A stretch of DNA of 14,786 nucleotides, taken from the IMG/VR virus record IMGVR_UViG_3300029068_000023; one strand, written 5' to 3'. The notes under the pieces were generated by a model. It was not told where the DNA came from and searched no databases. It saw nothing but the letters and a program-made list of their open reading frames with translations. The position numbers and the translations under genes were made by a program. The stretch comes from a virus (lineage: Duplodnaviria > Heunggongvirae > Uroviricota > Caudoviricetes). Positions 1 to 14,786 of this stretch are shown piece by piece. The number at the start of each line of letters is the position of its first letter. The first letter of the stretch is position 1.

Positions 1-92
1 CAGCTGGCAAGCGAATGTAAAGACTGACTAAGCATGTAGTACCGAGGATGTAGGAATTTCGGACGCGGGTTCAACTCCCGCCAGCTCCACCA
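1..92 (+). ncRNA. ssrA: 3' portion of the tmRNA gene (ssrA), ending at the CCA terminus; 5' part lies outside the window
   Basis: Positions 1-92 match the sequence I recall for the 3' end of enterobacterial tmRNA, ending ggacgcgggttcaactcccgccagctccacca (61-92). A P4-type integrase follows directly, as at the E. coli ssrA locus. Confidence 0.88.
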
Positions 93-128
93 CTTGCTCT
101 TCCGGATACGTCCGGCGAAATACTGAAA

Positions 129-160
129 GCCCGCATGGCACAAGCTCTGCGGGCTTTTTT
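129..160 (+). terminator. Rho-independent terminator downstream of ssrA
   Basis: Perfect inverted repeat gcccgca (129-135) / tgcgggc (148-154) with a 12-nt loop, followed by T6 (155-160). Confidence 0.7.
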
Positions 161-204
161 GTGTCTCTCCTTGTCCGAGAACATCCGGCTAAATCCAGTG
201 ATTA

Positions 205-256
205 TTGGTATACATTTAGGTATACGGTAGGATGTATACCTAAACACGTATACCAA
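205..256. promoter_or_regulatory. Cluster of four GGTATAC heptamers upstream of int; probable integrase arm-type or Vis/AlpA binding sites
   Basis: ggtatac at 207-213 and 219-225 (direct, 12-bp spacing); gtatacc at 234-240 and 248-254 (inverted). The 23-mer ttggtatacatttaggtatacgg (205-227) recurs as ttggtatacgattaggtatacgc at 11029-11051. Confidence 0.5.
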
Positions 257-276
257 TTCATGATGGAGTAACTACA

Positions 277-1500
277 GTGGCACGGACAACACGTCCTCTG
301 ACCAACACTGAAATTCTGCGGACTAAAGCTTTAGAGAAGGATCTAACACTGCATGATGGCGAGGGGCTTTTCCTGATAGTGAAAACAAACGGGAAAAAAC
401 TCTGGCGTTTCCGTTATCAACGTCCAACAACAAAACAGCGAACAATGATGGGGCTTGGTGCCTTCCCTGCCTTATCGCTTGCTGATGCCCGAAGGCTAAG
501 GGCTGAATACCTTTCCTTATTAGCCAATGGAATTGACCCGCAAATACAAGCTGAAGTTGCAGAGGAGCAGCAGAAAATCGTGCTTAACAGTATTTTTTCA
601 GCAGTCGCCTCTAACTGGTTCTTGCTCAAAAGCAAAAGTGTTACTCCTGATTACGCAAAGGATATTTGGCGCTCATTGGAAAAAGACGTACTCCCTGCTA
701 TTGGCGAGATCCCCGTTCAGCAAATCAAAGCCCGAACACTAGTTGAAGCACTTGAACCAATCAAAGCTCGCGGAGCACTGGAAACAGTTCGTCGCCTAGT
801 ACAACGTATTAACGAAATAATGATTTATGCGATTAACACTGGTTTGATTGATACTAATCCAGCATCAGGCATTGGTATGGCTTTTGAAAAACCCAAAAAG
901 CAAAACATGCCAACACTGCGGCCTGAAGAGTTACCTAAGCTGATGCGTTCTTTAGCTATGTCAAATCTTTCTATTCCAACTCGCTGTCTAATTGAATGGC
1001 AACTCCTGACACTTGTACGCCCATCTGAAGCTGCCGGTGCTCGATGGGTAGAGATCGATCTTGAAACAAAACTATGGACAATTCCCGCAGAACGGATGAA
1101 AGCCAAGCGTGAGCACATTGTTCCTTTATCACCACAAGCGTTAAATATACTCGATGTTATGAAGCCAATTAGTGGCCACCGAGAATTCATTTTTCCCAGC
1201 AGATGTGACCCGAAGAAGTCAATGAACAGTCAAACGGCGAATGCTGCTTTGAAACGGATAGGTTATGGAGGTAAACTGGTTGCCCATGGAATGCGCTCAA
1301 TAGCCAGCACGGCAATGAATGAATTTGGATTCAACCCAGATGTAATTGAAGCTGCACTTGCTCATATTGATAAAAATGAAGTTCGACGCGCGTACAACCG
1401 CTCAGTTTATCTTACTCAGCGTAAAGAATTGATGGAATGGTGGGGGGAACAATGTGTTTCGCAATTCTCATCTATTAGAAATAAGTGGCCCGTCTCCTAA
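277..1500 (+). CDS. int: P4-family tyrosine integrase (site-specific recombinase), GTG start
   Basis: 407-aa ORF next to the tmRNA 3' end. N-terminal arm-binding-like region (DGEGLFLIV...KLWRFRY) and C-terminal catalytic region with HGMRS...AHID...RRAYNRSVYL (conserved R, H-x-x-R, Y). GTG at 277 preceded by ggag (264-267). Confidence 0.92.
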   Translation: MARTTRPLTNTEILRTKALEKDLTLHDGEGLFLIVKTNGKKLWRFRYQRPTTKQRTMMGLGAFPALSLADARRLRAEYLSLLANGIDPQIQAEVAEEQQKIVLNSIFSAVASNWFLLKSKSVTPDYAKDIWRSLEKDVLPAIGEIPVQQIKARTLVEALEPIKARGALETVRRLVQRINEIMIYAINTGLIDTNPASGIGMAFEKPKKQNMPTLRPEELPKLMRSLAMSNLSIPTRCLIEWQLLTLVRPSEAAGARWVEIDLETKLWTIPAERMKAKREHIVPLSPQALNILDVMKPISGHREFIFPSRCDPKKSMNSQTANAALKRIGYGGKLVAHGMRSIASTAMNEFGFNPDVIEAALAHIDKNEVRRAYNRSVYLTQRKELMEWWGEQCVSQFSSIRNKWPVS

Positions 1501-1543
1501 TTTGGTAGTTTTGTTCATTTGAGATACATAGCAAGGATTTGAA

Positions 1544-3302: not shown

Positions 3303-3609
3303 AAAAAATAAGAAGCACACAAATGTTTTTATAGCCTAAAAAACCGCCACAATATTTAACAGCCACATTAAAACACATGCATTATGTTAATGCATTAAAT
3401 GAAATTAATCCTCCATCCACTCCGTAAAAATAACACTATCATAAACACATCAATAGAGTCATCCAAAAACACAAAAATAACTTTAACTCAATAATATTAA
3501 ACATTCCCCTTTCTAATCACTACTCTAACTTATTGTCGTAGATGAAGCGAGCAAACTCAATTGCGCTCTCAGACTTTGAAAAAATTGAACACATCAACAT
3601 TTGCGCGCA

Positions 3610-3628
3610 GTGCTTTCCCCGCCTCGCC
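3610..3628. other. cos site (cohesive-end 19-mer of P2/P4-type phages)
   Basis: gtgctttccccgcctcgcc (3610-3628) is the exact reverse complement of the 19-nt P2/P4 cohesive end GGCGAGGCGGGGAAAGCAC as I recall it; it lies next to psu as in P4. A GC hairpin ccgccc/gggcgg plus T4 follows at 3628-3651. Confidence 0.7.
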
Positions 3629-3731
3629 CGCCCGCTTTGCAGGGCGGTTTTAATGCAGTTGCACTGACACGCTCAGGCCGCGCCGGGAATGGCGCGGTCT
3701 GCAGAAAATGAGGCAGGAAAACGCATGCAAA

Positions 3732-3762
3732 GCCATGCACCTTATCGATGCATGGCTTTTTT
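3732..3762. terminator. Bidirectional stem-loop terminator between the cargo region and psu
   Basis: gccatgca (3732-3739) / tgcatggc (3749-3756), followed by T6 on the plus strand (3757-3762) and preceded by an A-rich run (terminator for the minus-strand psu transcript, stop at 3793). Confidence 0.55.
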
Positions 3763-3792
3763 CAGTAAAAACGGGCGGATTTTCGGGGGATT

Positions 3793-4365
3793 TTACACAG
3801 ACTGATGTGATGCCAGTTGCGCACTTTTACGCGAAAAAATCATGTTCTGCGCAGGGGTGAATTTTTCACGGCTGTCGTCCACCGAAGCCGCGTCAGGCCT
3901 GAATCCGATGGCCGTTAAAATGTCGCTATCCTGTGCGGAATAATTAATTTTTTCACCCTTTGCAAGCCAGGACAGAAGGGCTTCACGCAGGGCATCTGTG
4001 GCACGCTGTATGGCACAGTTTCGGGCAATGGCCGTCAGTTCACTGTAGCCCATCAGCTCCGGTGCCAGTGCGGCCGCCAGTACTGTGCCGTGCTGCTGCA
4101 TAAAATCATTCAGCCGGTCGCGGATGCTGATGTGCTGAACGGCTTCATGCGAACGAATATAACGACCGGCGGCCTGATTCACCTGCCATTTTCTGACTTC
4201 GATAATATTGCGTAATTCGTCCAGGCGACTGACGTTTCTGCCTTCTCCTGACAGAAGCCGCAGGTATTCCTGTTCGGCCGCTGCCAGCTCATTTTTGCGT
4301 TGCAGCCATGCTGCTTTGTTATTCTGACAGGTGTCAAAGGCCTGCTGTAAGGCTGTGCTTTCCAT
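3793..4365 (-). CDS. psu: Polarity suppression protein Psu (Rho antagonist / capsid decoration), P4-type
   Basis: 190 aa, the length of P4 Psu; sequence MESTALQQAFDTCQNNKAAWLQRKNELAAAEQEYLRLL... matches my recollection of P4 Psu; last gene of the sid-delta-psu operon next to cos. Confidence 0.9.
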   Translation of the reverse strand: MESTALQQAFDTCQNNKAAWLQRKNELAAAEQEYLRLLSGEGRNVSRLDELRNIIEVRKWQVNQAAGRYIRSHEAVQHISIRDRLNDFMQQHGTVLAAALAPELMGYSELTAIARNCAIQRATDALREALLSWLAKGEKINYSAQDSDILTAIGFRPDAASVDDSREKFTPAQNMIFSRKSAQLASHQSV

Positions 4366-4438
4366 CGTTATCTCTTTCTCATCATGCTGAAGAATAAAAA
4401 TACGGTGTGCGGCGACGGCCGGGGTTAACCGGCAGCCC

Positions 4439-4939
4439 TCATTCCAGACGCAGCGAATATGATTGTGTTTTTAACCGTACTGGCGGCAGTTCCTGTTTTT
4501 CATGCAGGCGTTCTGCCAGTTCGTCCGGCGTGACCGGGCGGACAATGAAGCGGTTGATGGTCTGAAGCGTTTTAAACACCAGACCACAGCCCGGATCCGT
4601 GCACACATAAAAACGTTCAGTGACTTCCTGAGACAGACGCCGCGATGTTCTTGACAGTGCAAGGCCTTTACATCTCCGACAACAATATCCGGTAACAAGC
4701 ATTCTTTTCGGGCGTTTCATACTGCCGGAGGCTGACGTCAGTGAATCGCGGTATCTCTGTTTGCCTGAAATGTATTCCATTCCTGAATCTTTACTGTCAG
4801 AGAAAAAGCTTTCACTCGCTTCAAATGTCGCAGAGCAATAAATATTCCGGCACTGTGCAATCATTATCTTGGTGCCATCGTCCATGAAATGTGCGCGACG
4901 GGTGTGAGCAACATGTCCACACGACGGGCAGTAAATCAT
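4439..4939 (-). CDS. delta: Delta, Ogr-family zinc-finger late transcription activator (tandem Ogr-like domains)
   Basis: 166 aa; two Cys-rich Ogr-like halves (MIYCPSCGH...CRNIYC and CCRRC...YVCTDPGCG); start overlaps the sid stop (ATGA at 4936-4939). Confidence 0.9.
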   Translation of the reverse strand: MIYCPSCGHVAHTRRAHFMDDGTKIMIAQCRNIYCSATFEASESFFSDSKDSGMEYISGKQRYRDSLTSASGSMKRPKRMLVTGYCCRRCKGLALSRTSRRLSQEVTERFYVCTDPGCGLVFKTLQTINRFIVRPVTPDELAERLHEKQELPPVRLKTQSYSLRLE

Positions 4940-5670
4940 GACAGCAGTCCTCTGGCCTTAAGCTCTGCTCCCTGCTGGTCTATTTTGTCCTGCCACACCT
5001 TGCGCTGTGCCGGTGTGCCTGCCACCTCATAATCCATGTGCGGGAGTGTTGCCGCTGACAGTCCGGTCAGCCGGAGAACCGGCTCGCCGGTGAGGCTGAT
5101 TTGCATCTGTTTAATTTTCTGTTCCAGCGATGATTTCACCTGCTGCATGACAGCCTTTTCCGGTGCGACGTAGCCCTGATGGCCGGTGGTGTTGGCGAGC
5201 GGATTTTCCTGTACCAGGATGCTCAGATGCATTGCCCGGACAAGCGCCTCACAGGTTTCATTCAGGGCGTGTTCCAGCTCATGCTCTGCATACAGACTCA
5301 GAAGGTGATGATGTGCCTTCCGGTAGGCGGTGGCCGTGCTGTCACACGCCCCTTTCAGGCGTTCACGTTCAAAATTCAGCACCACGGCCAGATTGTCATA
5401 TTCCTGTACCAGCTCCCGGCGTGCCACGCGCTCAATGTGGCGCTGTTTCAGCTCGTCGCTCAGGACACCACCGGCTGCACGAAAGGCTGTGCGCCAGTCA
5501 TCAGCGTCATTTCCGTCGGCCTGCGCCAGCGCATTTTTTTCCTGCTCTGCCCGTTCAATGGCCGTGACGGTCTCATCCATCAGGCGGGCGTTCTCAAGGT
5601 GGGCGGCTCTGGCCTTTTCCAGTTGTGCCAGTGCGGGTTGCAGATATTCAGGGATGGTGTTGTCAGACAT
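4936..5670 (-). CDS. sid: Sid, external scaffold/capsid size determination protein
   Basis: 244 aa from ATG at 5670 (MSDNTIPEYLQPALAQLEKARAAHLENARLMD...), with strong SD GAGGAG 7 nt upstream on the minus strand. The ORF-track start at 5688 is a GTG without an SD and is probably an over-extension. Confidence 0.88.
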   Translation of the reverse strand: MSDNTIPEYLQPALAQLEKARAAHLENARLMDETVTAIERAEQEKNALAQADGNDADDWRTAFRAAGGVLSDELKQRHIERVARRELVQEYDNLAVVLNFERERLKGACDSTATAYRKAHHHLLSLYAEHELEHALNETCEALVRAMHLSILVQENPLANTTGHQGYVAPEKAVMQQVKSSLEQKIKQMQISLTGEPVLRLTGLSAATLPHMDYEVAGTPAQRKVWQDKIDQQGAELKARGLLS

Positions 5671-5695
5671 TTTCCGGCTCCTCGTCACTTCAGGT

Positions 5696-5760
5696 TAAGA
5701 AAATTGTGACGTACACCGGACAACAACACGACGCATTGCAGATGTGCCAGCCCTGACACA
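5696..5760 (-). promoter_or_regulatory. Psid-like late promoter with two TGT-N12-ACA activator (Delta/Ogr) sites
   Basis: TGT-N12-ACA at 5743-5760 and 5705-5722; centres 38 bp apart, fitting the -55 and -18 arrangement described for P4 late promoters if the sid transcript starts near 5696. Confidence 0.5.
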
Positions 5761-5839
5761 GGAGACTCATCCTCAGACCGGCAAGCCAGGAAAAGGTCGC
5801 AGGAAAAACCGGCTTACTGTTTGTTTTTTTATATTTTAC

Positions 5840-5943
5840 TGTTCACCTCTGTTCACCATAAGAAAAAAGATAAGTAATACAGTAAGTTAAATGGTGAACA
5901 ATCGCAGTAATGACTGTTCACCGTCTGTTCACCACTGTTCACC
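5840..5943. repeat. ori1-like cluster of six TGTTCACC iterons (alpha-protein binding sites)
   Basis: tgttcacc at 5840-5847, 5850-5857, 5915-5922, 5926-5933, 5936-5943 and inverted ggtgaaca at 5893-5900, in an AT-rich intergenic region between the divergent late promoters, about 4.8 kb from the crr repeats. Confidence 0.6.
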
Positions 5944-6102
5944 CGCTCATGGACTTTTTGTGCTGTTTATTACTGTTTGTTTTTATTAATTCGCCGGGAA
6001 TGAATAAGAAAAAACGATTTGTATTTCACTATAAAAATTACGAATTGCTTTAAGTGGCTTTAAATGACTTTAAGTGGAGATGAACAAAAAACACACAAGC
6101 TT

Positions 6103-6166
6103 TGTAAGGCTGCCGGAACAAATCCCCCCTGTTGCGTCTGCTGAAAATATTCACAAAATAAAGCGC
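6103..6166 (+). promoter_or_regulatory. PLL-like late promoter upstream of vis with a TGT-N12-ACA site
   Basis: TGT-N12-ACA at 6103-6120; a site centred at -55 would put the start near 6166, about 57 nt upstream of the vis ATG. Confidence 0.4.
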
Positions 6167-6222
6167 TACCCGAAGCCGGACGGACTTATCCGGTGCTGTA
6201 TGGACATTAACGAGGTAGCCCG

Positions 6223-6489
6223 ATGCAAGCTGTTTTTTCTTCCCCGTCTCCCGCCCCTGTGACGCCACTGATGCCGCTGCCGGACATCACACAGGAGCGT
6301 TTTTTACGTCTTCCGGAAGTGATGCACCTGTGCGGCCTGTCACGCTCGACCATCTACGAACTCATCCGTAAGGGGGAATTTCCGCCGCAGGTGAGTCTTG
6401 GCGGTAAAAATGTGGCCTGGCTGCACTCTGAAGTCACCGCATGGATGGCCGGACGCATTGCCGGACGCAAACGGGGGTACGACGCATGA
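6223..6489 (+). CDS. vis: Vis, AlpA-family excisionase-like DNA-binding regulator
   Basis: 88 aa (P4 orf88/Vis length); helix-turn-helix core [29 protein letters not shown] typical of the AlpA family; SD gagg 7 nt upstream of ATG 6223. Confidence 0.8.
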
Positions 6490-7085
6490 TGATACCCGCT
6501 CTGCAAAAACTCCCTTTTTCTGGCTTGCCTTTTTCCGGCATTTGCGGATATAGTTTTTCCGCTGCCGCAAAATCGGCAGCCGGGCGTGAGAACCCGAGCA
6601 ATTCACAGGCGACATATGACGCGCCACGCGTCTTTTTTTGTGTCGCAATCAATGCCACAGAGCGCCAGATTATGGTGTGGTGTGTGGTCAGTCGTGCAGA
6701 TGGCATTCCGTGCATCCTGCCCGCGTCCGCTCATTATGCCGCAGAGTCAATGGTAGCTCAGGCGGGGCAGCCTCCGGGCTGGCCGGTATCCTGTGAAGCC
6801 GGTATTCTCACCCCCGTCTGGGCTATCGCCATCGAGCGTGAGAACTCCGGCGATAGCGTTATTTGCTATTCACAGGAGGCTGCCATCATGGCTACAACCC
6901 TTACCCCCTCACACCCTGAATTTGTCTTTGTGTTTGCGGCTGTCCGTCGCGCAGACCGTCATCCCCGTATCTGTATGCTTCGCACCGTCGCCGGTGATGA
7001 ACGCAGTGCCCGCCGTTCCCTTGTCCGTGACTATGTGCTCTCCCTTGCTGCCCGTCTGCCGGTGGTGGAGGTGTCCCGTGCGTAA
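6486..7085 (+). CDS. 199-aa ORF coupled to vis by an ATGA overlap and spanning the immunity-like region; coding status uncertain
   Basis: ATG 6486 overlaps the vis stop; the ORF runs 600 bp to TAA 7083-7085. The N-terminal two-thirds is Cys-rich and overlaps structured RNA-like elements; the last 65 codons have their own strong RBS (aggagg 6874-6879, ATG 6888). Either the full ORF or only 6888-7085 may be the real gene. Confidence 0.4.
6584..6876 (+). ncRNA. Immunity-like structured region (candidate CI-RNA / seqA-seqB-seqC type transcription-termination control)
   Basis: Two copies of gcgtgagaac (6584-6593, 6836-6845), each followed by attcacagg (6601-6609, 6868-6876); a partially complementary ttctcac at 6805-6811; a 9-bp stem hairpin at 6822-6857 enclosing the second copy; an intrinsic terminator at 6618-6639. 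Assignment to individual P4 elements is not resolved. Confidence 0.35.
6618..6639 (+). terminator. Intrinsic terminator within the immunity-like region
   Basis: gacgcg (6618-6623) / cgcgtc (6627-6632) stem with 3-nt loop, followed by T7 (6633-6639). Confidence 0.55.
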
Positions 7086-7365
7086 TAAAAAAGCCCCTCA
7101 GACCGTCTCAGCACGTCATGACGCCCGTGAACACCTCAGCATTGAGGCTTACCATAAGCTCAACCGCGCCAGCGCCGTATCCCGGTTTGTTGGGGGTGAT
7201 TTGATTCACCGTGAACTCTCCGGCCTGCATCAGCTCTACATTCCGCATATTTTCAGCTACCTGAATGAAGATATTGATTTTGTGCTGAATGAGCTGAAAG
7301 CCAAAGGCCTGTGCCGCGATTTTCTCGCCCAGCAGAAAGACCGGGGAGACAGGACGCATGTTTGA
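7078..7365 (+). CDS. Epsilon, anti-repressor-like protein (derepresses helper P2 prophage in P4)
   Basis: 95 aa (P4 Epsilon length) from GTG 7078 with SD ggagg (7067-7071); begins [20 protein letters not shown]. The 190-aa ORF-track call from 6793 is an N-terminal over-extension. Start overlaps the stop of the preceding ORF. Confidence 0.7.
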
Positions 7366-7813
7366 TTTTCCCCAGCCCGGTGAGATTTACCGTTCTGCCG
7401 GTTTTCCCGATGTGGCCGTGGTCGGCATTCTGGAAGACGGTATTCCGTGGGAAATGCCGTACCGCTGCCCGGAAATTGTCTGGAACCCGTACCGCCGTAA
7501 ATTCAGTATCCTTGTGCGTATCCTCGCTGACGGGCGCACCACAGACATCCCGCTGGGGCGTTTTCTGCGGGAATTTACCTGTGACCGTCCTGACCTGTTT
7601 AAACGCAGCCCCGTAAACCGGCATGCGGTACTGAAAGAAATGGCCGGAGACCCGGAATTACAGAAATGGCGGGAGAAATATCTGGATATTTACCCGCAGG
7701 ACCCTGTTCCGGTCAGCCGGGCGGCACCGGTGGCGCGGGAATGGCGGGAAATTCCCCGCACGGAGCCTGACCCGGAAATCACCCCGGATAACAGTTACCG
7801 CAATTATCTGTAA
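7358..7813 (+). CDS. P4 orf151-like protein (151 aa), function unknown
   Basis: 151 aa exactly; ATG 7358 overlaps the end of epsilon; position in the left operon upstream of alpha. Confidence 0.75.
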   Translation: MFDFPQPGEIYRSAGFPDVAVVGILEDGIPWEMPYRCPEIVWNPYRRKFSILVRILADGRTTDIPLGRFLREFTCDRPDLFKRSPVNRHAVLKEMAGDPELQKWREKYLDIYPQDPVPVSRAAPVAREWREIPRTEPDPEITPDNSYRNYL

Positions 7814-7948
7814 TTAAAAAACGACACCCGAAAAATTAAATGTGCGTATTCGCGCAGGGATACGCACGTCTTCAGGAGACGCAGATATGCCTTATCAGTT
7901 AATGCAACCGGCACGGAATGCAGTCATCTGTCACAGGGAGGAAAGCAA

Positions 7949-8269
7949 ATGAAAACACCCTTACCGCCCGTCTTACGCGCAGCCCTTTACCGTCGTGCTG
8001 TCGCCTGTGCCTGGCTGACCGTGTGCGAACGTCAGCACCGCTACCCGCATCTCACCCTTGAATCACTGGAGGCGGCCATCGCCGCTGAGCTGGAAGGCTT
8101 TTATCTGCGCCAGCACGGTGAGGAAAAAGGGCGTCAGATAGCCTGTGCCCTGCTGGAAGATTTAATGGAATCCGGCCCCCTGAAGGCCGCGCCGTCGCTG
8201 TCCTTTCTCGGGCTGGTTGTGATGGATGAACTCTGTGCCCGTCACATAAAAGCGCCGGTACTGCACTGA
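7949..8269 (+). CDS. Hypothetical protein (106 aa) between orf151 and alpha
   Basis: Strong RBS gggagg 8 nt upstream of ATG 7949; stop 15 nt before the alpha start. I cannot confirm from memory whether P4 has an equivalent ORF here. Confidence 0.6.
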
Positions 8270-8283
8270 AGGAGAACAACACC

Positions 8284-10617
8284 ATGAAAATGAACGTAAC
8301 CGCCACCGTCAGCCATGCGCTCGGCCACTGGCCGCGTATTCTCCCGGCGCTGGGGATTCAGGTGCTGAAAAACCGTCATCAGCCCTGTCCGGTCTGTGGC
8401 GGGAGTGACCGCTTCCGTTTTGATGACAGGGAGGGGCGCGGCACCTGGTACTGCAATCAGTGTGGTGCCGGTGACGGCCTGAAACTGGTTGAAAAGGTGT
8501 TTGGTGTTTCCCCGTCCGACGCGGCCGCAAAGGTGGCTGCCGTGACCGGCAGCCTGCCCCCGGCTGACCCGGCAGTGACGGCTGCCGCCGGTGCTGAAAC
8601 AGACGCCGCCCGGAAGAACGCCGCCGCACTGGCACAAACCCTGATGGCGAAAACCCGTCCCGGAACCGGTAACGCCTACCTGACCCGCAAGGGCTTTCCC
8701 GGCCGGGAATGCCGGATGCTGACCGGCACACACAGAGCCGGTGGCGTGAGCTGGCGCGCCGGTGACCTTGTGGTGCCACTGTATGACGACAGCGGCGAAC
8801 TGGTTAACCTTCAGTTAATCAGTGCTGACGGCCGTAAGCGCACCCTGAAAGGCGGACAGGTCAGGGGCACCTGTCACACCCTTGAAGGACAGAATCAGGC
8901 CGGAAAACGTCTGTGGATAGCGGAGGGATACGCGACCGCACTTACCGTGCATCACCTGACCGGTGAAACGGTGATGGTGGCGCTTTCTTCCGTGAACCTC
9001 CTTTCTCTGGCCAGCCTTGCCCGGCAGAAGCACCCCGCCTGTCAGATTGTCCTTGCCGCTGACCGTGACCTCAGCGGTGACGGCCAGAAAAAAGCCGCCG
9101 CAGCCGCAGATGCGTGTGAAGGTGTTGTTGCCCTGCCGCCGGTCTTCGGTGACTGGAATGATGCCTTCACGCAGTACGGCGGGGAAGCCACCCGTAAGGC
9201 CATTTATGATGCCATCCGGCCACCGGCTGAAAGCCCGTTCGACACCATGAGCGAAGCGGAGTTTTCCGCCATGAGTACGAGCGAAAAGGCCATGCGTATC
9301 TATGAGCATTACGGCGAGGCGCTCGCGGTCGATGCCAACGGCCAGCTTCTGTCCCGTTATGAAAATGGTGTCTGGAAGGTGCTGCCACCACAGGACTTTG
9401 CCCGGGATGTGGCCGGGCTGTTTCAGCGGCTACGCGCGCCGTTCTCCTCCGGGAAGGTGGCCTCCGTGGTGGACACCCTGAAGCTGATTATTCCGCAGCA
9501 GGAAGCCCCCTCCCGCCGCCTGATTGGCTTTCGTAACGGCGTGCTCGACACGCAGAACGGCACGTTCCACCCGCACAGTCCGTCACACTGGATGCGCACC
9601 CTGTGCGATGTGGATTTCACCCCGCCGGTGGACGGTGAAACGCTGGAAACCCACGCTCCCGCGTTCTGGCGCTGGCTTGACCGTGCTGCCGGTGGTCGTG
9701 CGGAAAAACGCGACGTGATTCTGGCCGCACTGTTTATGGTGCTGGCAAACCGCTACGACTGGCAGCTCTTTCTGGAGGTGACCGGTCCCGGCGGCAGCGG
9801 CAAAAGTATCATGGCCGAAATAGCCACCCTGCTGGCCGGGGAGGATAACGCCACGTCGGCCACCATTGAGACGCTGGAATCCCCGCGTGAACGTGCCGCG
9901 TTAACTGGCTTCTCACTGATACGCCTGCCGGACCAGGAAAAATGGAGCGGCGACGGAGCCGGACTCAAGGCCATCACCGGCGGCGATGCGGTGTCCGTTG
10001 ACCCGAAATACCGGGATGCGTACTCCACGCACATCCCGGCGGTGATTCTGGCCGTGAACAATAACCCGATGCGCTTCACCGACCGCAGCGGCGGCGTGTC
10101 ACGCCGGCGGGTGATTATTCACTTCCCGGAACAGATAGCCCCGCAGGAGCGCGACCCGCAGCTTAAGGACAAAATCACCCGCGAGCTGGCGGTCATCGTG
10201 CGTCACCTGATGCAGAAGTTCAGCGACCCGATGCTCGCCCGGTCACTGCTTCAGTCCCAGCAGAACTCAGACGAGGCACTGAACATCAAACGGGATGCCG
10301 ACCCGACGTTTGATTTTATCGGCTATCTGGAAACCCTGCCGCAGACCAGCGGCATGTATATGGGGAACGCCAGTATCATCCCGCGTAATTACCGTAAATA
10401 CCTCTATCACGCCTATCTGGCCTACATGGAGGCAAACGGCTACCGGAATGTACTCAGTCTGAAAATGTTCGGGCTGGGGCTGCCGGTGATGCTGAAGGAA
10501 TACGGACTGAATTACGAGAAGCGCCATACCAAACAGGGGATACAGACCAACCTGACGCTGAAAGAGGAAAGCTACGGCGACTGGCTGCCAAAATGTGATG
10601 ACCCTGCAACAGCCTGA
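8284..10617 (+). CDS. alpha: Alpha, bifunctional primase-helicase replication protein (zinc-binding primase + superfamily-3 helicase + C-terminal origin-binding domain)
   Basis: 777 aa (P4 alpha length). N-terminal zinc motif CPVCGGSDRFRFDD...WYCNQCG, TOPRIM-like primase region, Walker A GPGGSGKS (near 9786-9809); SD aaggag upstream of ATG 8284. Confidence 0.95.
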   Translation: MKMNVTATVSHALGHWPRILPALGIQVLKNRHQPCPVCGGSDRFRFDDREGRGTWYCNQCGAGDGLKLVEKVFGVSPSDAAAKVAAVTGSLPPADPAVTAAAGAETDAARKNAAALAQTLMAKTRPGTGNAYLTRKGFPGRECRMLTGTHRAGGVSWRAGDLVVPLYDDSGELVNLQLISADGRKRTLKGGQVRGTCHTLEGQNQAGKRLWIAEGYATALTVHHLTGETVMVALSSVNLLSLASLARQKHPACQIVLAADRDLSGDGQKKAAAAADACEGVVALPPVFGDWNDAFTQYGGEATRKAIYDAIRPPAESPFDTMSEAEFSAMSTSEKAMRIYEHYGEALAVDANGQLLSRYENGVWKVLPPQDFARDVAGLFQRLRAPFSSGKVASVVDTLKLIIPQQEAPSRRLIGFRNGVLDTQNGTFHPHSPSHWMRTLCDVDFTPPVDGETLETHAPAFWRWLDRAAGGRAEKRDVILAALFMVLANRYDWQLFLEVTGPGGSGKSIMAEIATLLAGEDNATSATIETLESPRERAALTGFSLIRLPDQEKWSGDGAGLKAITGGDAVSVDPKYRDAYSTHIPAVILAVNNNPMRFTDRSGGVSRRRVIIHFPEQIAPQERDPQLKDKITRELAVIVRHLMQKFSDPMLARSLLQSQQNSDEALNIKRDADPTFDFIGYLETLPQTSGMYMGNASIIPRNYRKYLYHAYLAYMEANGYRNVLSLKMFGLGLPVMLKEYGLNYEKRHTKQGIQTNLTLKEESYGDWLPKCDDPATA

Positions 10618-10624
10618 CCCACCT

Positions 10625-10649
10625 GACCGGCATCTGCCGGTCTTTTTTT
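10625..10649 (+). terminator. Rho-independent terminator after alpha
   Basis: gaccggca (10625-10632) / tgccggtc (10635-10642) followed by T7 (10643-10649), immediately after the alpha stop (10615-10617). Confidence 0.6.
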
Positions 10650-10667
10650 ATCCCGACATCCCCCGAA

Positions 10668-10762
10668 GGTGAACAATCCACTGTTCACCCTTCACCGTAT
10701 ATTCACCCGTTATCACACTGAAATTAAAAGAGAAAAACGAAAGGTGAACAGTGTGAACAATC
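10668..10762. repeat. crr-like direct repeat 1 (cis replication region) containing TGTTCACC/GGTGAACA iterons
   Basis: ggtgaaca 10668-10675, tgttcacc 10682-10689, ggtgaaca 10743-10750, gtgtgaaca 10751-10759; about 85% identical by eye to the repeat at 10850-10944, with 182-bp periodicity; followed by an A9/T6 tract. Confidence 0.7.
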
Positions 10763-10849
10763 AAATCAAAAAAAAACTTTTTTCTCCCTGTGCGATTTTC
10801 AGTGCAGGGAATTAATCACCGGTATGAGTCACACCGGCAGAATGCCGGA

Positions 10850-10944
10850 GGTGAAGAATCGAATGTTCACCCTTCACCCATTATTCACCACCTATCATAC
10901 TGAAATAAAATGAGAAAAAAGAAAGGTGAACAGTGTGAACAGTT
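10850..10944. repeat. crr-like direct repeat 2
   Basis: ggtgaaga 10850-10857, tgttcacc 10864-10871, ggtgaaca 10925-10932, gtgtgaaca about 10933-10941; followed by an A8/T7 tract (about 10952-10966). Confidence 0.7.
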
Positions 10945-11028
10945 CTTCCGAAAAAAAATTTTTTTCCTGTACGATATAGCATCAATCCAAGTAAAAATGC
11001 GCTTTCATTTCACATTAACTTACAGCCA

Positions 11029-11051
11029 TTGGTATACGATTAGGTATACGC
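11029..11051. repeat. Right-end copy of the GGTATAC arm-type repeat pair
   Basis: ttggtatacgattaggtatacgc, with ggtatac at 11031-11037 and 11043-11049 (same 12-bp spacing as 207-213/219-225); 20 of 23 positions identical to 205-227. Confidence 0.5.
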
Positions 11052-11103
11052 ACAAAAACTGAATTAAACAAAATCATTAAAAATCAAAGCAATACAGTAG
11101 TTA

Positions 11104-11120
11104 TTCAAACTCCGCCAGCC
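11104..11120 (+). other. Candidate attR core: degenerate direct repeat of the ssrA 3' end
   Basis: ttcaaactccgccagcc (11104-11120) versus ssrA ttcaactcccgccagct (70-86): same orientation, matching blocks ttcaa / ctcc / gccagc with one indel pair. Located about 55 bp beyond the right arm-type repeats. Confidence 0.35.
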
Positions 11121-11251
11121 AATCATGATTGGACGGTGTAAGGACAACACCAACAAAAACAGGAAGTTAGAAGTCTCAGCAAAACACCGACCAGACGGTG
11201 AGGAGACATAAAAGGATACGCAAAGGAGCCGCGGCTCCTGATAACATGAAA

Positions 11252-11272
11252 GCCCACAGATGTGGGCTTTTT
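11252..11272. terminator. Stem-loop terminator downstream of the autotransporter gene (T-run on plus strand)
   Basis: gcccaca (11252-11258) / tgtgggc (11261-11267) plus T5 (11268-11272); a second palindrome ggagccgcggctcc lies at 11224-11237. Confidence 0.5.
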
Positions 11273-11281
11273 CGTTGATGG

Positions 11282-14200
11282 TCAGAACGACCAGTTCACA
11301 CCAGCTACCGCGTTCCACGGGGATTCCACACCGGCACTATGGCTATACCCCACCCCAAGATGCCCGCTTAACGTACTGCTGAATGAGGCTTTAATACCTG
11401 CCTGGTATATTCCACGTCTGCCCGACAAATAATTGACGAAATTACCGTCACTATTCACTTTCACCCGGTTATCATCGACAAATTCTTTGCGCACAGCCGC
11501 CTTCAGCCACGGCTCAACTTCCATACCGTTCCCCAGACGCATGTTGTAACTCAGCGTTGCGCCCAGTTCACGATATATACTGCGGGTATCGACTGATTTC
11601 GATTTCATGCCATTGGATAAATGATATTCGGGGTTATCAGCGGTGAACCCCGTTAACGATGCATACGGCGTCAGGTTCCAGTTACCATCGGTAAATCGCA
11701 TCCCGGTTTCAATGTGACCGCCCAGCCCGTTGCTGTGGTAACTGCCATTGGCGGCTCCACCGCTGCTCATTTTACCTGCTACGTTACTTTTAAAACGGTT
11801 CAGCTTCACGACACCGTCCAGATAGAAACCACTTTCATGTTCCCAACTGGCATAGCCGCCCAGAGAATAACTGCCCACACTGCCATGTCCTCCGCGATCA
11901 AAACCGATATGTGAATGGGAATAGCCCATAAAAGCGCCTAGCGTGGTAATTCCTTCAGGAATATCATTACGGCTGTCGATCCCCACTGTCATTCCGGTCA
12001 GCGTCTGCTCAAACCCGGCACCCGCATCGGTGGTGACATTATTACGGGTGTTATACGTCGCCCCCCAGACATTATTGTTGTGTGGACTCGCTTTCATTAT
12101 GTTCAACCGCTCGCGAATACTGTTTAGCTCAGCATCAAATACCAACGGTAATGTTGCTGCCATATTGAGTACGGCTGGCGTAGAAGGCGTAATGCGTTTC
12201 TCCGGAACGGGTGTCGGCGTTGGATCGGGAGTAGGGTCTGGTTTTGGATTTGGGTCTGGCTTTGGATCGGGTTTTGGGTCTGGCTTTGGATTTGGGATGG
12301 GGTCCGGGTTGGGTTTGACATCATTGGTCAGGTTCCAGTTGCTGTTGCCGTCACTTTTCAGGACATACTCATAGGTCCCAAGATCAACGAAACCGCCGGT
12401 ATTGCCCAGCGTAAACGAAGCATCCCCTCCCCCTGTTTTCACCAGCGTCATCGCGTCGTCAGACTGTGGGCTGACGCCGGTATCCTGAACAAAGATTTTA
12501 AAATTACCAGTGGCGTTGTTGTTGACGACCAGTTGATCGCCCCGGGAGCCTGCAACGTTGGTATGCAGGTAGAAATTACCGCTACCGGAAAGTTCATTGG
12601 TTGTCAGCGTATTGTAGATACCGTTAGTTGTGGCAGGCGCTGCTGTTTGTGCTGACAAATAAACATCACCGTCGTTGAGTAGCAAACTGTTTACTCTATA
12701 TTCGCAGTTGCTGGTACCTGCACAGGAATTATTGCTGTTAAGCCAGACACTGCCCCGGCTGGCAGCCGTCAGGTCGGCAAGCGTGGTATCGACGCCATTT
12801 CCCAGAGTCAATGTCGCGCTATCGGTAATCCGGACCGCCCCTTCGAGTTTAACTGGCGTAACATTATCCCGTGGCGTCATTAACGACAGGCTTCCTGTCG
12901 CGCCACTGACCGATGCATCCGCCAGCGTACCTGCGTAGACGATTGCCGTACCGCCAGCGACCTGGAGATCTTCTGCCCGGGCCAGAGCCTGAAACTCATC
13001 TTTTGACCGCCCAAGGGTATATTGCCCGCCAGAGTTAACCTTTGTGGCGGAGTCCTGACCCAGGTTTTGCATTGCCCCACCCTTGCCAACCGTGGAGTCG
13101 CGAGCTTCGGTACCTGCTAATACCAATAAATTACCGCCATTTTCCAGCAACATATTGGTCGCTAAATTGCCGGAAATGGAAAAAGTACCGTACTGGTGAG
13201 TACCGCTGATTTCAATACCGTTAGCCGTGCTCGTCTGGAGAGCGGCACCGCTGTTCTGGACGATATCTGTCGCTTTGCCATTATCGTTGACTGTCAGCGT
13301 ACCGCCTTCATTGATCTTTGTTTTTATTGCCTCTCCGTTAGCTGAAACTGTTTGTATTCCGCCGTCGTTAATTGTTGTCTCATTCGCCACACCCTCGACA
13401 ATTTGTTCACCGCCGGTGAGCGTCGTGCCTGTCGCAGTGGCTTTTGTTTTGACGATCTCCCGTCCGCCCATATTGACCTGTGTTTTGTCAGAAGAGGTGT
13501 CTGACTCCACGGTTAACACGCCGCCATTTGCCAGCAGGATATTGTTCGCCGCACCCTGCTCGATGCTGAACGCGACGCCATCCGCGCGTGTTCCTGTGAC
13601 CCGCGTCGCCCTGGTGGTTGCAACCAAAGCGCCCTGGCTACTCTGCTGTATCCCCGTTGCGCTGCCTTTCTCCCGCACATCGAGTGTGCCGCCGTCATTA
13701 AGCACCGAGTTTTCAGCCAGACCGCCCTCATTAACTACCTGTGAACCCCCATTAATAATGGAACCTTCCGCTGTCCCGTTTGCCATAATTTGTTGTAGGC
13801 CAGAGACGATATCGGTATTGATTGCCTTACCATAATTCTGAACGGTTTGCGTGCCACCATTGATGTGTGTTTTCTCTGTTGACCCACCATCAACAATTTG
13901 TTCACCACTTTCGATATTTGCTTCAGTGGCTAAACCATATACCGTTTGCTTGCCACCTTTGATATTTGCTTTATCAGAAGTGGCACTGGCATATATTGTT
14001 TGGGTGCCAGCACTATTGAGTACAGTGCCAACATCTTTTCCATAAACATCCATTTTGCCGTTGGCATTAATAATCGTGTCAACTGCGCGGGAACCAGTGA
14101 CGACTGTTAATGAGCCAGCGTTTTCCAGCACTACATTTTTAGCTTCTGAATTCCTGATGTAGAAAGCATCACCATAACTGTTGGTTCCTTCGATAAGTGT

Positions 14201-14755
14201 TCCGGAGGTCGTGGAAGCAATTAATGCGCCGCCGGATTGTTGCTCAACATGCTTAGCCTCACCACCGTCCTGAACCTCCAGAACGCCGCCATTATTAAGT
14301 CTGGTGCTATCTGTTTTAGCCTCCTTCTGGACAATCAGCTTACCGCCAGTATCAATGGTAGTATTTTTCGCCGAGGTTTTAGCCACTACCGTCAGTTCGC
14401 CGGTATTTTCCAGCACAACATAGTTAGCCTCCCCTCCGGTAATAGTGAAGTGAGAGAGCTTGTTGTATCCTTCGATATCAGTCCCTGCACCCGTGTTGGC
14501 AACTAAAGCACTGCCCGTCTCCTGGTTAACCCCATGTGCAATACCGCCGGTATAGACAATCAGCGAGCCTCCGGCGCTAATATTGCTGCCAATTGCCGTA
14601 CCATCTTTCTCAACAACCTGCCGGCTCCCGGAGGATATAATTGTTGTGTCAGCTTTCCCGCCGCTTTTGATATTTTGCGTTCCGCTGTTGATATTGGTGC
14701 GGCTTTGTTGAATAAATAAGATTTCGTGCGAACGACCCTGTAGCTGGCTGGATTT
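11282..14755 (-). CDS. Autotransporter (type Va) adhesin-like protein: beta-helical passenger, proline-rich linker, C-terminal beta-barrel; N-terminus not resolved in the window
   Basis: C-terminus ends ...AGVNWSF (aromatic terminal residue typical of outer-membrane beta-barrels); linker PNPDPIPNPKPDPKPDPKPDPNPKPDPTPDPTP; passenger has repeated Gly-rich beta-helix motifs. By my translation the frame is open from 14755 to 11282 (the ORF track starts it at GTG 14416), with an in-frame TGA at 14756-14758. Position next to the ssrA island resembles ypjA of E. coli K-12, not confirmed. Confidence 0.8.
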   Translation of the reverse strand, partial: KSSQLQGRSHEILFIQQSRTNINSGTQNIKSGGKADTTIISSGSRQVVEKDGTAIGSNISAGGSLIVYTGGIAHGVNQETGSALVANTGAGTDIEGYNKLSHFTITGGEANYVVLENTGELTVVAKTSAKNTTIDTGGKLIVQKEAKTDSTRLNNGGVLEVQDGGEAKHVEQQSGGALIASTTSGTLIEGTNSYGDAFYIRNSEAKNVVLENAGSLTVVTGSRAVDTIINANGKMDVYGKDVGTVLNSAGTQTIYASATSDKANIKGGKQTVYGLATEANIESGEQIVDGGSTEKTHINGGTQTVQNYGKAINTDIVSGLQQIMANGTAEGSIINGGSQVVNEGGLAENSVLNDGGTLDVREKGSATGIQQSSQGALVATTRATRVTGTRADGVAFSIEQGAANNILLANGGVLTVESDTSSDKTQVNMGGREIVKTKATATGTTLTGGEQIVEGVANETTINDGGIQTVSANGEAIKTKINEGGTLTVNDNGKATDIVQNSGAALQTSTANGIEISGTHQYGTFSISGNLATNMLLENGGNLLVLAGTEARDSTVGKGGAMQNLGQDSATKVNSGGQYTLGRSKDEFQALARAEDLQVAGGTAIVYAGTLADASVSGATGSLSLMTPRDNVTPVKLEGAVRITDSATLTLGNGVDTTLADLTAASRGSVWLNSNNSCAGTSNCEYRVNSLLLNDGDVYLSAQTAAPATTNGIYNTLTTNELSGSGNFYLHTNVAGSRGDQLVVNNNATGNFKIFVQDTGVSPQSDDAMTLVKTGGGDASFTLGNTGGFVDLGTYEYVLKSDGNSNWNLTNDVKPNPDPIPNPKPDPKPDPKPDPNPKPDPTPDPTPTPVPEKRITPSTPAVLNMAATLPLVFDAELNSIRERLNIMKASPHNNNVWGATYNTRNNVTTDAGAGFEQTLTGMTVGIDSRNDIPEGITTLGAFMGYSHSHIGFDRGGHGSVGSYSLGGYASWEHESGFYLDGVVKLNRFKSNVAGKMSSGGAANGSYHSNGLGGHIETGMRFTDGNWNLTPYASLTGFTADNPEYHLSNGMKSKSVDTRSIYRELGATLSYNMRLGNGMEVEPWLKAAVRKEFVDDNRVKVNSDGNFVNYLSGRRGIYQAGIKASFSSTLSGHLGVGYSHSAGVESPWNAVAGVNWSF
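12205..12315 (-). repeat. Short tandem repeat encoding the Pro-Asp-Pro-Lys linker of the autotransporter
   Basis: Tandem units of ggatttgggtct / ggctttggatcg type on the plus strand, giving the PNPKPDPKPDP repeats on the minus strand. Confidence 0.6.
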
Positions 14756-14786
14756 TCAGGCAATACGCACGCTTTCTGGCATCCCA

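What the first reader, a model, noticed from the sequence alone, without database searches (positions are those of the whole stretch)
11029..11120. Right boundary: degenerate ssrA-like core plus a second copy of the GGTATAC arm-type repeats
Seen: the 23-mer carrying two GGTATAC heptamers upstream of int (205-227) recurs at 11029-11051, and about 55 bp further a 17-mer (11104-11120) resembles the ssrA 3' end in the same orientation but with mismatches and an indel. Inference: this is the attR side of the element. The imperfect core suggests an old integration or a core shorter than the similarity I aligned by eye, which may affect excision proficiency.
Basis: partly seen in the sequence, partly recalled or inferred. 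Interest (0 to 1): 0.45.

Follow-up and report, generated by a model that had tools for sequence, protein, structure and literature searches.

The report
Right attachment site of P4-like satellite
This is the right-hand end (attR) of a P4-like satellite prophage inserted in the E. coli tmRNA gene, ordinary in kind, but its leftover copy of the tmRNA tail has lost 5 bases, so cutting the element out should leave a broken tmRNA gene.

Summary
The GGTATAC pair at 11031-11049 repeats the pair at 207-225 (22-mer found only twice; heptamer 7 times against 0.83 expected). Empty-site genomes put the junction at 11119-11122. The window is ssrA 3' end, an 11-kb P4-like satellite, then ypjA. The heptamers occupy the positions of the attP arm repeats annotated in phage P4: two tandem 12-mers about 55 nt before the core, two more 112 nt after it. 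Int is full length (36% identical to P4 Int, 62% to K-12 IntA).

A sister element inserted in pepT of strain NCTC9088 fixes the crossover inside the 8-bp CCGCCAGC (11112-11119). It also shows that the element supplies ssrA's last 7 nt at attL. The mismatches left of the core are the element's own conserved sequence, not decay.

Right of the core the displaced chromosomal tail TCCACCA is reduced to CA. Related copies show a nested series of such deletions, 0-11 nt (about 50 in arrays), all with the same left end. Only the 1-nt form is documented (CP4-57, CP4So). Predicted excision here gives a tmRNA gene without acceptor strand or CCA. A new member of a known kind; the deletion hot spot is the only unusual part.

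The parts
1..92 (+). 3' part of ssrA (tmRNA gene), intact through the CCA end; forms attL with the element
   Evidence: Rfam tmRNA, 77 bits, model positions 278-374, cut at the 5' end. Identical to the ssrA of an empty-site genome.
78..85 (+). CCGCCAGC, the crossover segment in attL
   Evidence: It is the only sequence shared by attP and the pepT secondary site in NCTC9088. It is the longest exact attL/attR match in this window.
86..92 (+). TCCACCA, the last 7 nt of ssrA, inferred to be supplied by the element
   Evidence: attL in pepT reads pepT-CCGCCAGC-TCCACCA-CTTGCTCTTCC, whereas native pepT has CCGCCAGC-GCGGTCATG. Inferred for this window by homology of the P' arm.
93..276 (+). P' arm of the att module, between the ssrA end and the int start codon
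   Evidence: P4-like geometry: 112 nt from the core end to the first arm 12-mer, as in P4. The same arm follows ssrA-like blocks in 40 IMG/VR loci.
126..160 (+). Hairpin plus T-run carried by the element; replacement terminator for ssrA
   Evidence: Read directly: AAAGCCCGC...GCGGGCTTT followed by TTT. The scan reports a terminator-like site at 142-156. Conserved in all P' arms and in K-12 CP4-57.
205..228 (+). Two tandem 12-mers TTGGTATACATT TAGGTATACGGT; arm-type sites P'1 and P'2 (heptamers 207-213 and 219-225)
   Evidence: Same position as P4 repeats 3965-3942.
234..254 (-). Two inverted heptamers GGTATAC (234-240 and 248-254) just before int
   Evidence: P4 has one inverted arm repeat at its int start.
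277..1500 (+). int, a heterobivalent tyrosine integrase of the IntA/P4 type
   Evidence: Pfam Arm-DNA-bind_3, Phage_int_M and Phage_integrase. 36% identical to P4 Int and 62% to K-12 IntA.
6223..6489 (+). 88-aa AlpA/Vis-family protein, the candidate excision directionality factor
   Evidence: Pfam Phage_AlpA, 7e-21. Same length and position as P4 ORF88, annotated 'excisionase and transcriptional regulator'.
10663..10966 (+). crr-like pair of 122-nt direct repeats with P4 type-1 iterons; end of the P4-identical replication module
   Evidence: the repeat finder D2, 82%. 95.7% identical to the P4 t-alpha/crr region; homology stops at about 10964. GGTGAACA/TGTTCACC iterons.
10967..11103 (+). P arm of the att module
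   Evidence: At least 80% covered at 95-100% identity in 306 of 307 E. coli genomes that hold it. No match in the phage collection.
11029..11052 (+). Two tandem 12-mers TTGGTATACGAT TAGGTATACGCA; arm-type sites P1 and P2 (heptamers 11031-11037 and 11043-11049)
   Evidence: Same position as P4 repeats 4174-4151. Spacing to CCGCCAG is 62 nt in 67 of 71 related junctions and 63 nt in the other 4.
11104..11111 (+). TTCAAACT, element-borne sequence left of the crossover that resembles ssrA TTCAACTC; presumed core-type Int half-site
   Evidence: Constant in copies of the element. Family consensus TTCA(A/G)A(C/T)T. The role as a binding site is inferred.
11112..11119 (+). CCGCCAGC, the crossover segment in attR
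11120..11121 (+). CA, all that remains of the displaced chromosomal ssrA tail TCCACCA (TCCAC deleted)
   Evidence: Alignment with the empty site. The same variant is an exact match in 46 complete E. coli genomes.
11122..11281 (+). Native ssrA-ypjA intergenic flank, including the original hairpin at 11248-11270
   Evidence: 96-99% identical to empty-site genomes. Hairpin AAAGCCCAC-AGAT-GTGGGCTTT read directly.

Best explanation
Positions 11029-11121 are the attR junction of an 11-kb P4-like satellite prophage integrated in the 3' end of ssrA.

The element carries an integration module (int, P' arm, core, P arm) that differs from P4's own but has the same geometry. The two GGTATAC 12-mers at 11029-11052, together with the four heptamers before int, are the arm-type sites for the integrase's N-terminal arm-binding domain. 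TTCAAACT-CCGCCAGC is the element's core. Strand exchange with the chromosome happens inside CCGCCAGC.

On integration the element's own TCCACCA plus a terminator complete ssrA at attL. The chromosome's original TCCACCA is moved to attR. In this copy that displaced tail has lost TCCAC.

The exchange segment itself is intact, so excision may still be possible. However, excision would join ssrA to ...CCGCCAGC-CAATCATG, a tmRNA gene lacking the G3-U357 pair, most of the acceptor 3' strand and the CCA end. The element is therefore either locked in or costly to lose.

Shown: the repeats, the junction position, the P4-like geometry, the crossover segment, the 5-nt deletion and the in-silico product. 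Inferred: protein binding to the heptamers, the half-site role of TTCAAACT, and whether excision still works.
For: - Repeats are beyond chance.
- tmRNA 3' end at 1-92.
- Empty site and alignment place the junction.
- Element genes match P4: psu, delta, sid, Vis-like protein, Icd, alpha primase. C4 and isrK RNAs are present. The crr region is 95.7% identical to P4.
- The P4 record annotates arm repeats two-tandem / 53 nt / core / 112 nt / two-tandem plus one inverted. The window has the same layout, about 55 nt and 112 nt.
- Arm sequence co-varies between the two arms within each element: GGGGGCA in P4, GG(N)CCA in K-12 CP4-57, GGTATAC here.
- Arm-to-core spacing is fixed at 62-63 nt in 71 junctions.
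- Int has arm-binding, central and catalytic domains. My reading of the alignment is that the catalytic R, H-x-x-R, H and Y residues are aligned with P4 Int.
- The NCTC9088 insertion in pepT gives attP = TTATTCAAACT-CCGCCAGC-TCCACCA-CTTGCTC and places the exchange within CCGCCAGC.
- Perfect attR junctions (with TCCACCA) exist for the same P arm in 48 complete genomes. The window's form is therefore derived.
- ARAGORN on the predicted excisant cannot pair the native 5' end and finds no CCA.
- Published: CP4-57 excision deletes T357 and inactivates tmRNA (PMC10107115). The same is reported for Shewanella CP4So (PMC5148205).
Against: - No binding or recombination data exist for this element.
- No free attP form was found in IMG/VR or the phage collection.
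- The promoter scan found no sigma-70 match before int, so autoregulation through the heptamers is unsupported.
- The 17-mer's similarity to ssrA is not significant on its own.
- Whether the altered sequence right of the core still supports Int binding is unknown. The pepT site shows tolerance of an unrelated sequence there, but that is a single event.
Confidence: 0.88

Rival explanations
1. The imperfect core is random decay of an old integration. Both the mismatches left of CCGCCAGC and the missing bases to its right accumulated neutrally after the element became fixed.
For: attR differs from the ssrA tail by an insertion, a deletion and a 5-nt gap. The displaced tail has no function while the element is in place.
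Against: The left-hand differences are constant across copies of the element and shared with a 62%-identical integrase family. The surrounding flank is 96-99% identical to empty sites. A single 60-nt flank haplotype carries up to 6 different junction variants. Apart from one substituted form (L022), the changes are deletions sharing one left end, not scattered substitutions.
Confidence: 0.07
2. The 5-nt loss is one step of an integrase-associated erosion. Repeated cleavage or abortive exchange at the right edge of the CCGCCAGC segment in attR-type complexes removes bases from the chromosomal side. The element side is held by the P-arm protein complex, which gives nested deletions with a fixed left end.
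For: Among 71 unique junctions with this family's P arm, 2 are perfect, 41 lack T357 and 28 are shorter, all keeping GCCAGC(C). The deletions reach 11 nt into the flank and about 50 nt into a neighbouring element's arm. The same pattern appears on CCCCCAGC cores different from E. coli's, apparently from other species. Junctions with the same ssrA tail but another sequence on their left are perfect in 40 of 40 cases.
Against: No biochemical evidence exists. Simple tyrosine-recombinase chemistry at the right edge of the overlap would tether the chromosomal side, not the element side. Selection alone could give the same asymmetry (next rival).
Confidence: 0.3
3. The deletions arise by ordinary mutation and are enriched by a one-way trap. 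A perfect attR lets the element be lost without cost, so the site returns to 'empty'. Any lesion in the displaced ssrA tail makes loss of the element inactivate tmRNA, so such lineages stay occupied. The element side is conserved because it is needed to rebuild attP.
For: Exchange inside CCGCCAGC means lesions to its right stay in the chromosome and never travel with the element. Excision of CP4-57 and CP4So does yield defective tmRNA. Unrelated occupants share the same remnant: Sakai Sp17 also ends GCCAGC-CAATCATG. One variant is seen with different P arms on the same flank.
Against: This does not explain why the lesions are almost always deletions starting at one nucleotide rather than substitutions anywhere in TCCACCA. 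It also does not explain why loss of T357 recurs on different core sequences.
Confidence: 0.3
4. The deletions are slippage or hairpin events caused by local sequence. These are the CCA-CCA repeat and the 14-bp perfect palindrome CCAATCATGATTGG that overlaps the CCA end.
For: The palindrome is read directly at 11119-11132 and in the empty site. Loss of one CCA unit and of single C residues fits slippage. In the window's form the palindrome is kept whole and abuts GCCAG.
Against: The same anchored deletions occur where the tail is followed by other elements' arms that lack this palindrome, for example GCCAGCC-CACTTTTTAG, -CTTTTTAG and -TTTTAG. The larger deletions show no flanking microhomology. 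Tails preceded by other sequences are stable.
Confidence: 0.1

Closest known systems
Phage P4 attP (arm repeats and 20-bp core at leuX, as annotated in NC_001609)
   Same: Order crr, two tandem 12-bp arm repeats, about 53-55 nt, core ending in the CCA of a t(m)RNA gene, 112 nt, two tandem plus inverted arm repeats, int. The replication module is 95.7% identical.
   Different: The arm sequence is GGTATAC instead of GGGGGCA. The target is ssrA instead of leuX. Int is only 36% identical. The identity block is 15 bp (8 bp left in this copy) instead of 20 bp, with an imperfect ssrA mimic on the element side.
E. coli K-12 cryptic prophage CP4-57 (IntA/AlpA) at ssrA
   Same: Same target and same core: TTCAGACTCCGCCAGC against TTCAAACTCCGCCAGC. 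The integrase is 62% identical and an AlpA-family regulator is present. The element supplies the ssrA tail and terminator. attR is imperfect, so excision damages tmRNA.
   Different: CP4-57 is a 22-kb cryptic island with GG(N)CCA arm repeats, and its attR lacks only T357. The window element is an 11-kb P4-type satellite with GGTATAC arms, and its attR lacks 5 nt.
Shewanella oneidensis CP4So
   Same: A prophage with a P4-like integrase in ssrA whose attR lacks the U of the G-U pair. Excision abolishes tmRNA function (PMC5148205).
   Different: Different genus, a 36-kb mosaic prophage, a single-nucleotide defect, and excision that is regulated by cold.
P4-like satellites with defence hotspots (surveyed in PMC13586616)
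   Same: Core gene set, with a variable cargo slot between int and psu. att sites were delimited there by comparison with empty intervals.
   Different: In the passages I read, that survey delimits att sites by BLAST similarity. I found no discussion there of arm sites, the crossover position or attR erosion.

Membership tests
P4-type attachment module (heterobivalent tyrosine integrase with arm sites) | Integrase with an N-terminal arm-binding domain plus a tyrosine-recombinase catalytic domain | tested here: met
   Pfam Arm-DNA-bind_3 (8-92), Phage_int_M and Phage_integrase. Full-length alignment to P4 Int at 36% identity.
P4-type attachment module (heterobivalent tyrosine integrase with arm sites) | Repeated arm sequences on both sides of the core at P4-equivalent positions | tested here: met
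   two tandem 12-mers about 55 nt before the core, and two tandem plus two inverted 112 nt after it. Spacing is conserved in 71 junctions.
P4-type attachment module (heterobivalent tyrosine integrase with arm sites) | Core shared with the 3' end of a t(m)RNA gene, with the junction confirmed against an unoccupied site | tested here: met
   Empty site L002. 15-bp block CCGCCAGCTCCACCA in intact copies; 8 bp remain here.
P4-type attachment module (heterobivalent tyrosine integrase with arm sites) | Int (and Vis) actually bind the arm repeats | not testable with these tools
   Needs footprinting or EMSA. Only positional homology and arm co-variation between elements are available.
IntA/CP4-57-type ssrA islands with defective attR | Integrase closely related to IntA, plus an AlpA-family regulator | tested here: met
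   62% identity to IntA. Phage_AlpA domain, 7e-21.
IntA/CP4-57-type ssrA islands with defective attR | Exchange at CCGCCAGC in ssrA, with the element supplying the last 7 nt | tested here: met
   Natural secondary-site insertion in pepT. The K-12 annotation starts CP4-57 at the same CCGCCAGC.
IntA/CP4-57-type ssrA islands with defective attR | attR copy of the ssrA tail is defective, so excision gives a non-functional tmRNA | tested here: inconclusive
   The sequence defect is shown (5 nt missing) and the in-silico product lacks the acceptor strand and CCA. Excision and tmRNA activity were not measured.
P4-like phage satellite | psu-delta-sid, Vis, CI/C4 RNA, epsilon region, alpha primase-helicase, crr | tested here: met
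   RefSeq annotation of the 99.1% identical copy. Rfam C4, c4-a1b1 and isrK. Primase domains. crr 95.7% identical to P4.

The most novel reading that the evidence does not exclude
The attR side of IntA-family ssrA elements may be a site-specific deletion hot spot. Starting at the nucleotide after CCGCCAGC, the displaced tmRNA tail is progressively removed (0, 1, 3, 4, 5, 7, 9, 10, 11 and up to about 50 nt), repeatedly and independently. The process would depend on the element's own integrase complex. The effect would be to hold the host's tmRNA hostage, because only cells that keep an element have a working ssrA. The known single-base defect of CP4-57 and CP4So would then be the first step of a general ratchet.
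Probability: 0.3. Interest if true: 0.65.

Novelty: new member of a known kind. Interest (0 to 1): 0.36.

Why it matters
For annotation, this fixes the exact right end of a common E. coli satellite (present in about 300 of 5,426 complete genomes). It also shows that its integration module is a swapped-in IntA-type cassette with its own arm sequence.

For biology, it extends the known CP4-57 and CP4So effect, where excision breaks tmRNA, from a one-base defect to a graded series. That series suggests these elements become fixed by making their loss costly.

If the integrase itself causes the deletions, that would be an unreported mutagenic side activity of a tyrosine recombinase at its own attachment site. 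It is testable with simple amplicon sequencing.

Tried and rejected
- **Free attP form.** I searched for a free or virion form of the element to read attP directly. IMG/VR gave only integrated copies, with no locus holding P and P' repeats about 200 nt apart. The phage collection had no match.
- **pepT junction as an inversion.** I first read the NCTC9088 P-arm/pepT junction as an inversion and searched for the reciprocal pepT-ypjA chimera. None exists. Fetching the region showed a whole element inserted in pepT.
- **attP lacking T357.** I considered that attP natively lacks T357 because 41 of 71 junctions do. This is rejected: attL in pepT carries T, and 48 complete genomes have a perfect attR.
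- **Exchange in the terminal CCACCA.** I considered that exchange occurs in the terminal CCACCA. This is rejected, because pepT shares only CCGCCAGC with attP.
- **Inverted-repeat half-sites.** I looked for inverted-repeat half-sites around the core by eye and found nothing convincing.
- **int promoter.** The sigma-70 scan found no int promoter.
- **Williams 2003.** This paper (J Bacteriol 185:1059, cited from memory) is not held, so its treatment of these sites could not be checked.

Full report
**What the window is.** Positions 1-92 are the 3' part of the tmRNA gene ssrA (Rfam, 77 bits). From 93 to about 11119 lies a P4-like satellite prophage. It carries:
- int at 277-1500;
- two cargo ORFs at 1544-3302;
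- psu, delta and sid on the minus strand;
- an AlpA/Vis-like 88-aa protein at 6223-6489;
- C4 and isrK RNAs at 6548-6833;
- a 777-aa alpha-type primase at 8284-10617;
- a crr-like pair of 122-nt repeats at 10663-10966.

After 11122 comes the native ssrA-ypjA spacer and then ypjA on the minus strand. The closest complete genome, strain Ec1120, is 99.1% identical over 1-14700.

- The 22-mer TTGGTATACNNTTAGGTATACG occurs only at 205-226 and 11029-11050, with none expected by chance.
- GGTATAC occurs 7 times against 0.83 expected. Six of these lie in the two att regions.
- The 17-mer at 11104-11120 aligns to the ssrA tail with one insertion and one deletion. The longest exact match is CCGCCAGC at 11112-11119.
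- Taken alone that similarity is not significant. A better chance match lies on the minus strand around 8093-8723, in or near the primase gene. The position of the 17-mer is what counts.

**Where the junction is.** Many E. coli genomes have ssrA directly next to ypjA. In one of them (L002) the sequence reads ...GGGTTCAACTCCCGCCAGCTCCACCA|ATCATGATTGGACGG. The window's attR reads ...TTATTCAAACTCCGCCAGC-CA-ATCATGATTGGACGG. The element-specific sequence therefore ends at 11119. Positions 11120-11121 (CA) are the remnant of the ssrA end, and the flank resumes at 11122.

**What the heptamers are.** The GenBank record of P4 annotates 'attP arm sequence repeat' 12-mers (xxGGGGGCAxxx). Two tandem copies lie on the crr side, 53 nt from the 20-bp core. 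Two tandem copies plus one inverted copy lie 112 nt beyond the core, at the int start. The window has the same plan:
- TTGGTATACGAT TAGGTATACGCA lies about 55 nt before the core;
- TTGGTATACATT TAGGTATACGGT begins exactly 112 nt after the ssrA end;
- two inverted heptamers follow, then the int start codon.

K-12 CP4-57, whose IntA is 62% identical to this Int, has the same plan with GG(N)CCA repeats on both arms. So the arm sequence changes between elements but stays matched between the two arms of each element. That is what is expected of binding sites for the integrase's arm-binding domain, which Pfam detects here. In 71 related junctions from IMG/VR the distance from the repeats to CCGCCAG is 62 nt (67 cases) or 63 nt (4 cases), although the intervening sequence varies. 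Binding itself was not testable.

**The integration module is a swapped cassette.** Window 10618-10964 is 95.7% identical to P4's t-alpha/crr region. The homology stops where the P arm begins. Int is only 36% identical to P4 Int.

**Where the strands cross.** Strain NCTC9088 carries the same kind of element, with the same P' arm and GGTATAC repeats, inserted in pepT. The three relevant sequences are:
- native pepT: TTGCAATA-CCGCCAGC-GCGGTCATGATTTC;
- left junction: TTGCAATA-CCGCCAGC-TCCACCA-CTTGCTCTTCC;
- right junction: TTATTCAAACT-CCGCCAGC-GCGGTCATGATTTC.

No base is lost or gained. It follows that attP is ...TTATTCAAACT-CCGCCAGC-TCCACCA-CTTGCTC... and that exchange lies inside the 8-bp CCGCCAGC. 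The last 7 nt of ssrA at attL (window 86-92), together with the hairpin and T-run at 126-160, come from the element.

This agrees with published work. CP4-57 excision leaves ssrA without T357, which lies just right of CCGCCAGC and forms the G-U pair needed for alanylation (PMC10107115). The same holds for Shewanella CP4So (PMC5148205).

**The 'imperfect core', resolved.**
- Left of CCGCCAGC, the differences from ssrA (TTCAAACT against TTCAACTC) belong to the element. The P-arm stretch up to 11114 is at least 80% covered in 306 of 307 E. coli copies, and the sequence is conserved as TTCA(A/G)A(C/T)T across the family.
- Right of CCGCCAGC lies the displaced chromosomal tail. In 48 complete genomes with this same P arm it is intact, TCCACCA. 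In 42 it lacks T357. The window's form, lacking TCCAC, matches exactly in 46 genomes (94 matches in total).

So the window's attR is a derived, damaged form. Joining ssrA to the window's attR in silico gives ...CCGCCAGCCAATCATG. ARAGORN can no longer pair the native 5' end and finds no CCA. The exchange segment is intact, and the pepT event shows that an unrelated right-hand sequence can be tolerated, so excision may still occur. If it does, it should inactivate tmRNA.

**An unexplained pattern seen on the way.** Among copies next to the ypjA flank, the sequence after GCCAGC takes these forms:
- TCCACCAATCATG
- CCACCAATCATG
- CCCAATCATG
- CCAATCATG
- CAATCATG
- CTCATG
- CATG
- CTG
- TG

Where another ssrA element follows, the same anchored losses run into that element's arm, up to about 50 nt.
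- Of 71 unique junctions, 2 are perfect, 41 lack T357 and 28 are shorter.
- One 60-nt flank haplotype carries six variants and another carries five. The junction therefore changes far faster than its surroundings.
- The same ssrA tail is perfect in 40 of 40 junctions where something other than this family's P arm lies on its left.
- Elements whose cores read CCCCCAGC, apparently from other species, show the same loss of T and short deletions.
- Sakai prophage Sp17, an unrelated occupant, ends in the same 5-nt-deleted remnant. This fits lesions staying with the chromosome.

Three explanations remain open: an integrase-associated process, a selective one-way trap (a lesion makes loss of the element costly), and local slippage. 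The last is the weakest, because the pattern persists without the 14-bp palindrome CCAATCATGATTGG. I found no description of the series in the papers I could search. Williams 2003 could not be read.

**Verdict.** This is a correctly identified attR of a P4-like satellite with an IntA-type integration module. It is known in kind, and the exact anatomy is now defined. The part worth following up is the anchored deletion series in the displaced tmRNA tail. The window's 5-nt loss is one member of that series.

Noticed in passing
L148 (NZ_LR134226.1 2677632-2691327); native site in L147: A sister satellite is integrated inside pepT of strain NCTC9088, at a secondary site that shares CCGCCAGC and, 4 nt further on, TCATGATT with the ssrA site. 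The spacing of the two blocks matches the 4-nt-deleted attR form (CCGCCAGC-CCAA-TCATGATT), not the intact ssrA site.
   Followed up: yes
window 11119-11132: The native ssrA end and flank form a perfect 14-bp palindrome, CCAATCATGATTGG, overlapping the CCA end. In the window's deleted form it is kept whole by using the last C of CCGCCAGC. Its role is unknown.
   Followed up: partly
window 126-160: The element carries its own hairpin plus T-run directly after the ssrA end. It is conserved in all related P' arms and in K-12 CP4-57. The native hairpin is displaced to 11248-11270.
   Followed up: partly
window 1544-3302: Two cargo ORFs (366 and 223 aa) sit in the slot between int and psu and have no Pfam match. 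The first hits the PADLOC candidate defence family PDC-S02 (2.5e-18) and, weakly, a type II restriction enzyme model. Other copies of the element carry SIR2, NACHT, AAA ATPase or ABC-three-component genes here.
   Followed up: partly
window 10618-10966: The terminator and crr region is 95.7% identical to phage P4, including TGTTCACC/GGTGAACA iterons. The adjoining att/int module is unrelated at DNA level. There is a sharp module boundary at about 10965.
   Followed up: yes
window 6548-6833: Rfam finds c4-a1b1, isrK and C4 antisense RNA, the P4 immunity RNA region.
   Followed up: no
window ~14690-14786: The last ~90 nt match the end of an IS5-family element present in many copies in E. coli. 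All ypjA homology stops at 14700, so ypjA is interrupted here. In the closest genome it is cut by IS1 instead.
   Followed up: partly
L005, L006, L008, L012, L015, L017, L025, L027, L028 and others: Tandem arrays are common. About 134 of 307 E. coli copies of this P arm are followed not by ypjA but by the P' arm of another ssrA element with different arm repeats (for example ATGGCACCCTGA ATGGGACCCACT).
   Followed up: partly
L017, L044, L063, L073, L084, L101, L116, L126, L130, L133 (upstream of the P' arm): Other element types lie upstream of this family's P' arm, with perfect ssrA identity blocks of about 23-45 nt starting at different points (before the T-stem or earlier). Several integrase lineages therefore appear to cross over at other positions in ssrA.
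   Followed up: no
L004 (Sakai, Sp17 right end): The lambda-like prophage Sp17 ends ...GGGACGCCAGC-CAATCATG. This is the same 5-nt-deleted remnant as the window, although the occupant is unrelated.
   Followed up: partly
window ~8093-8723, minus strand: A chance local similarity to the ssrA 3' end scores higher than the true attR site. Similarity searches alone would mislocate the boundary.
   Followed up: no
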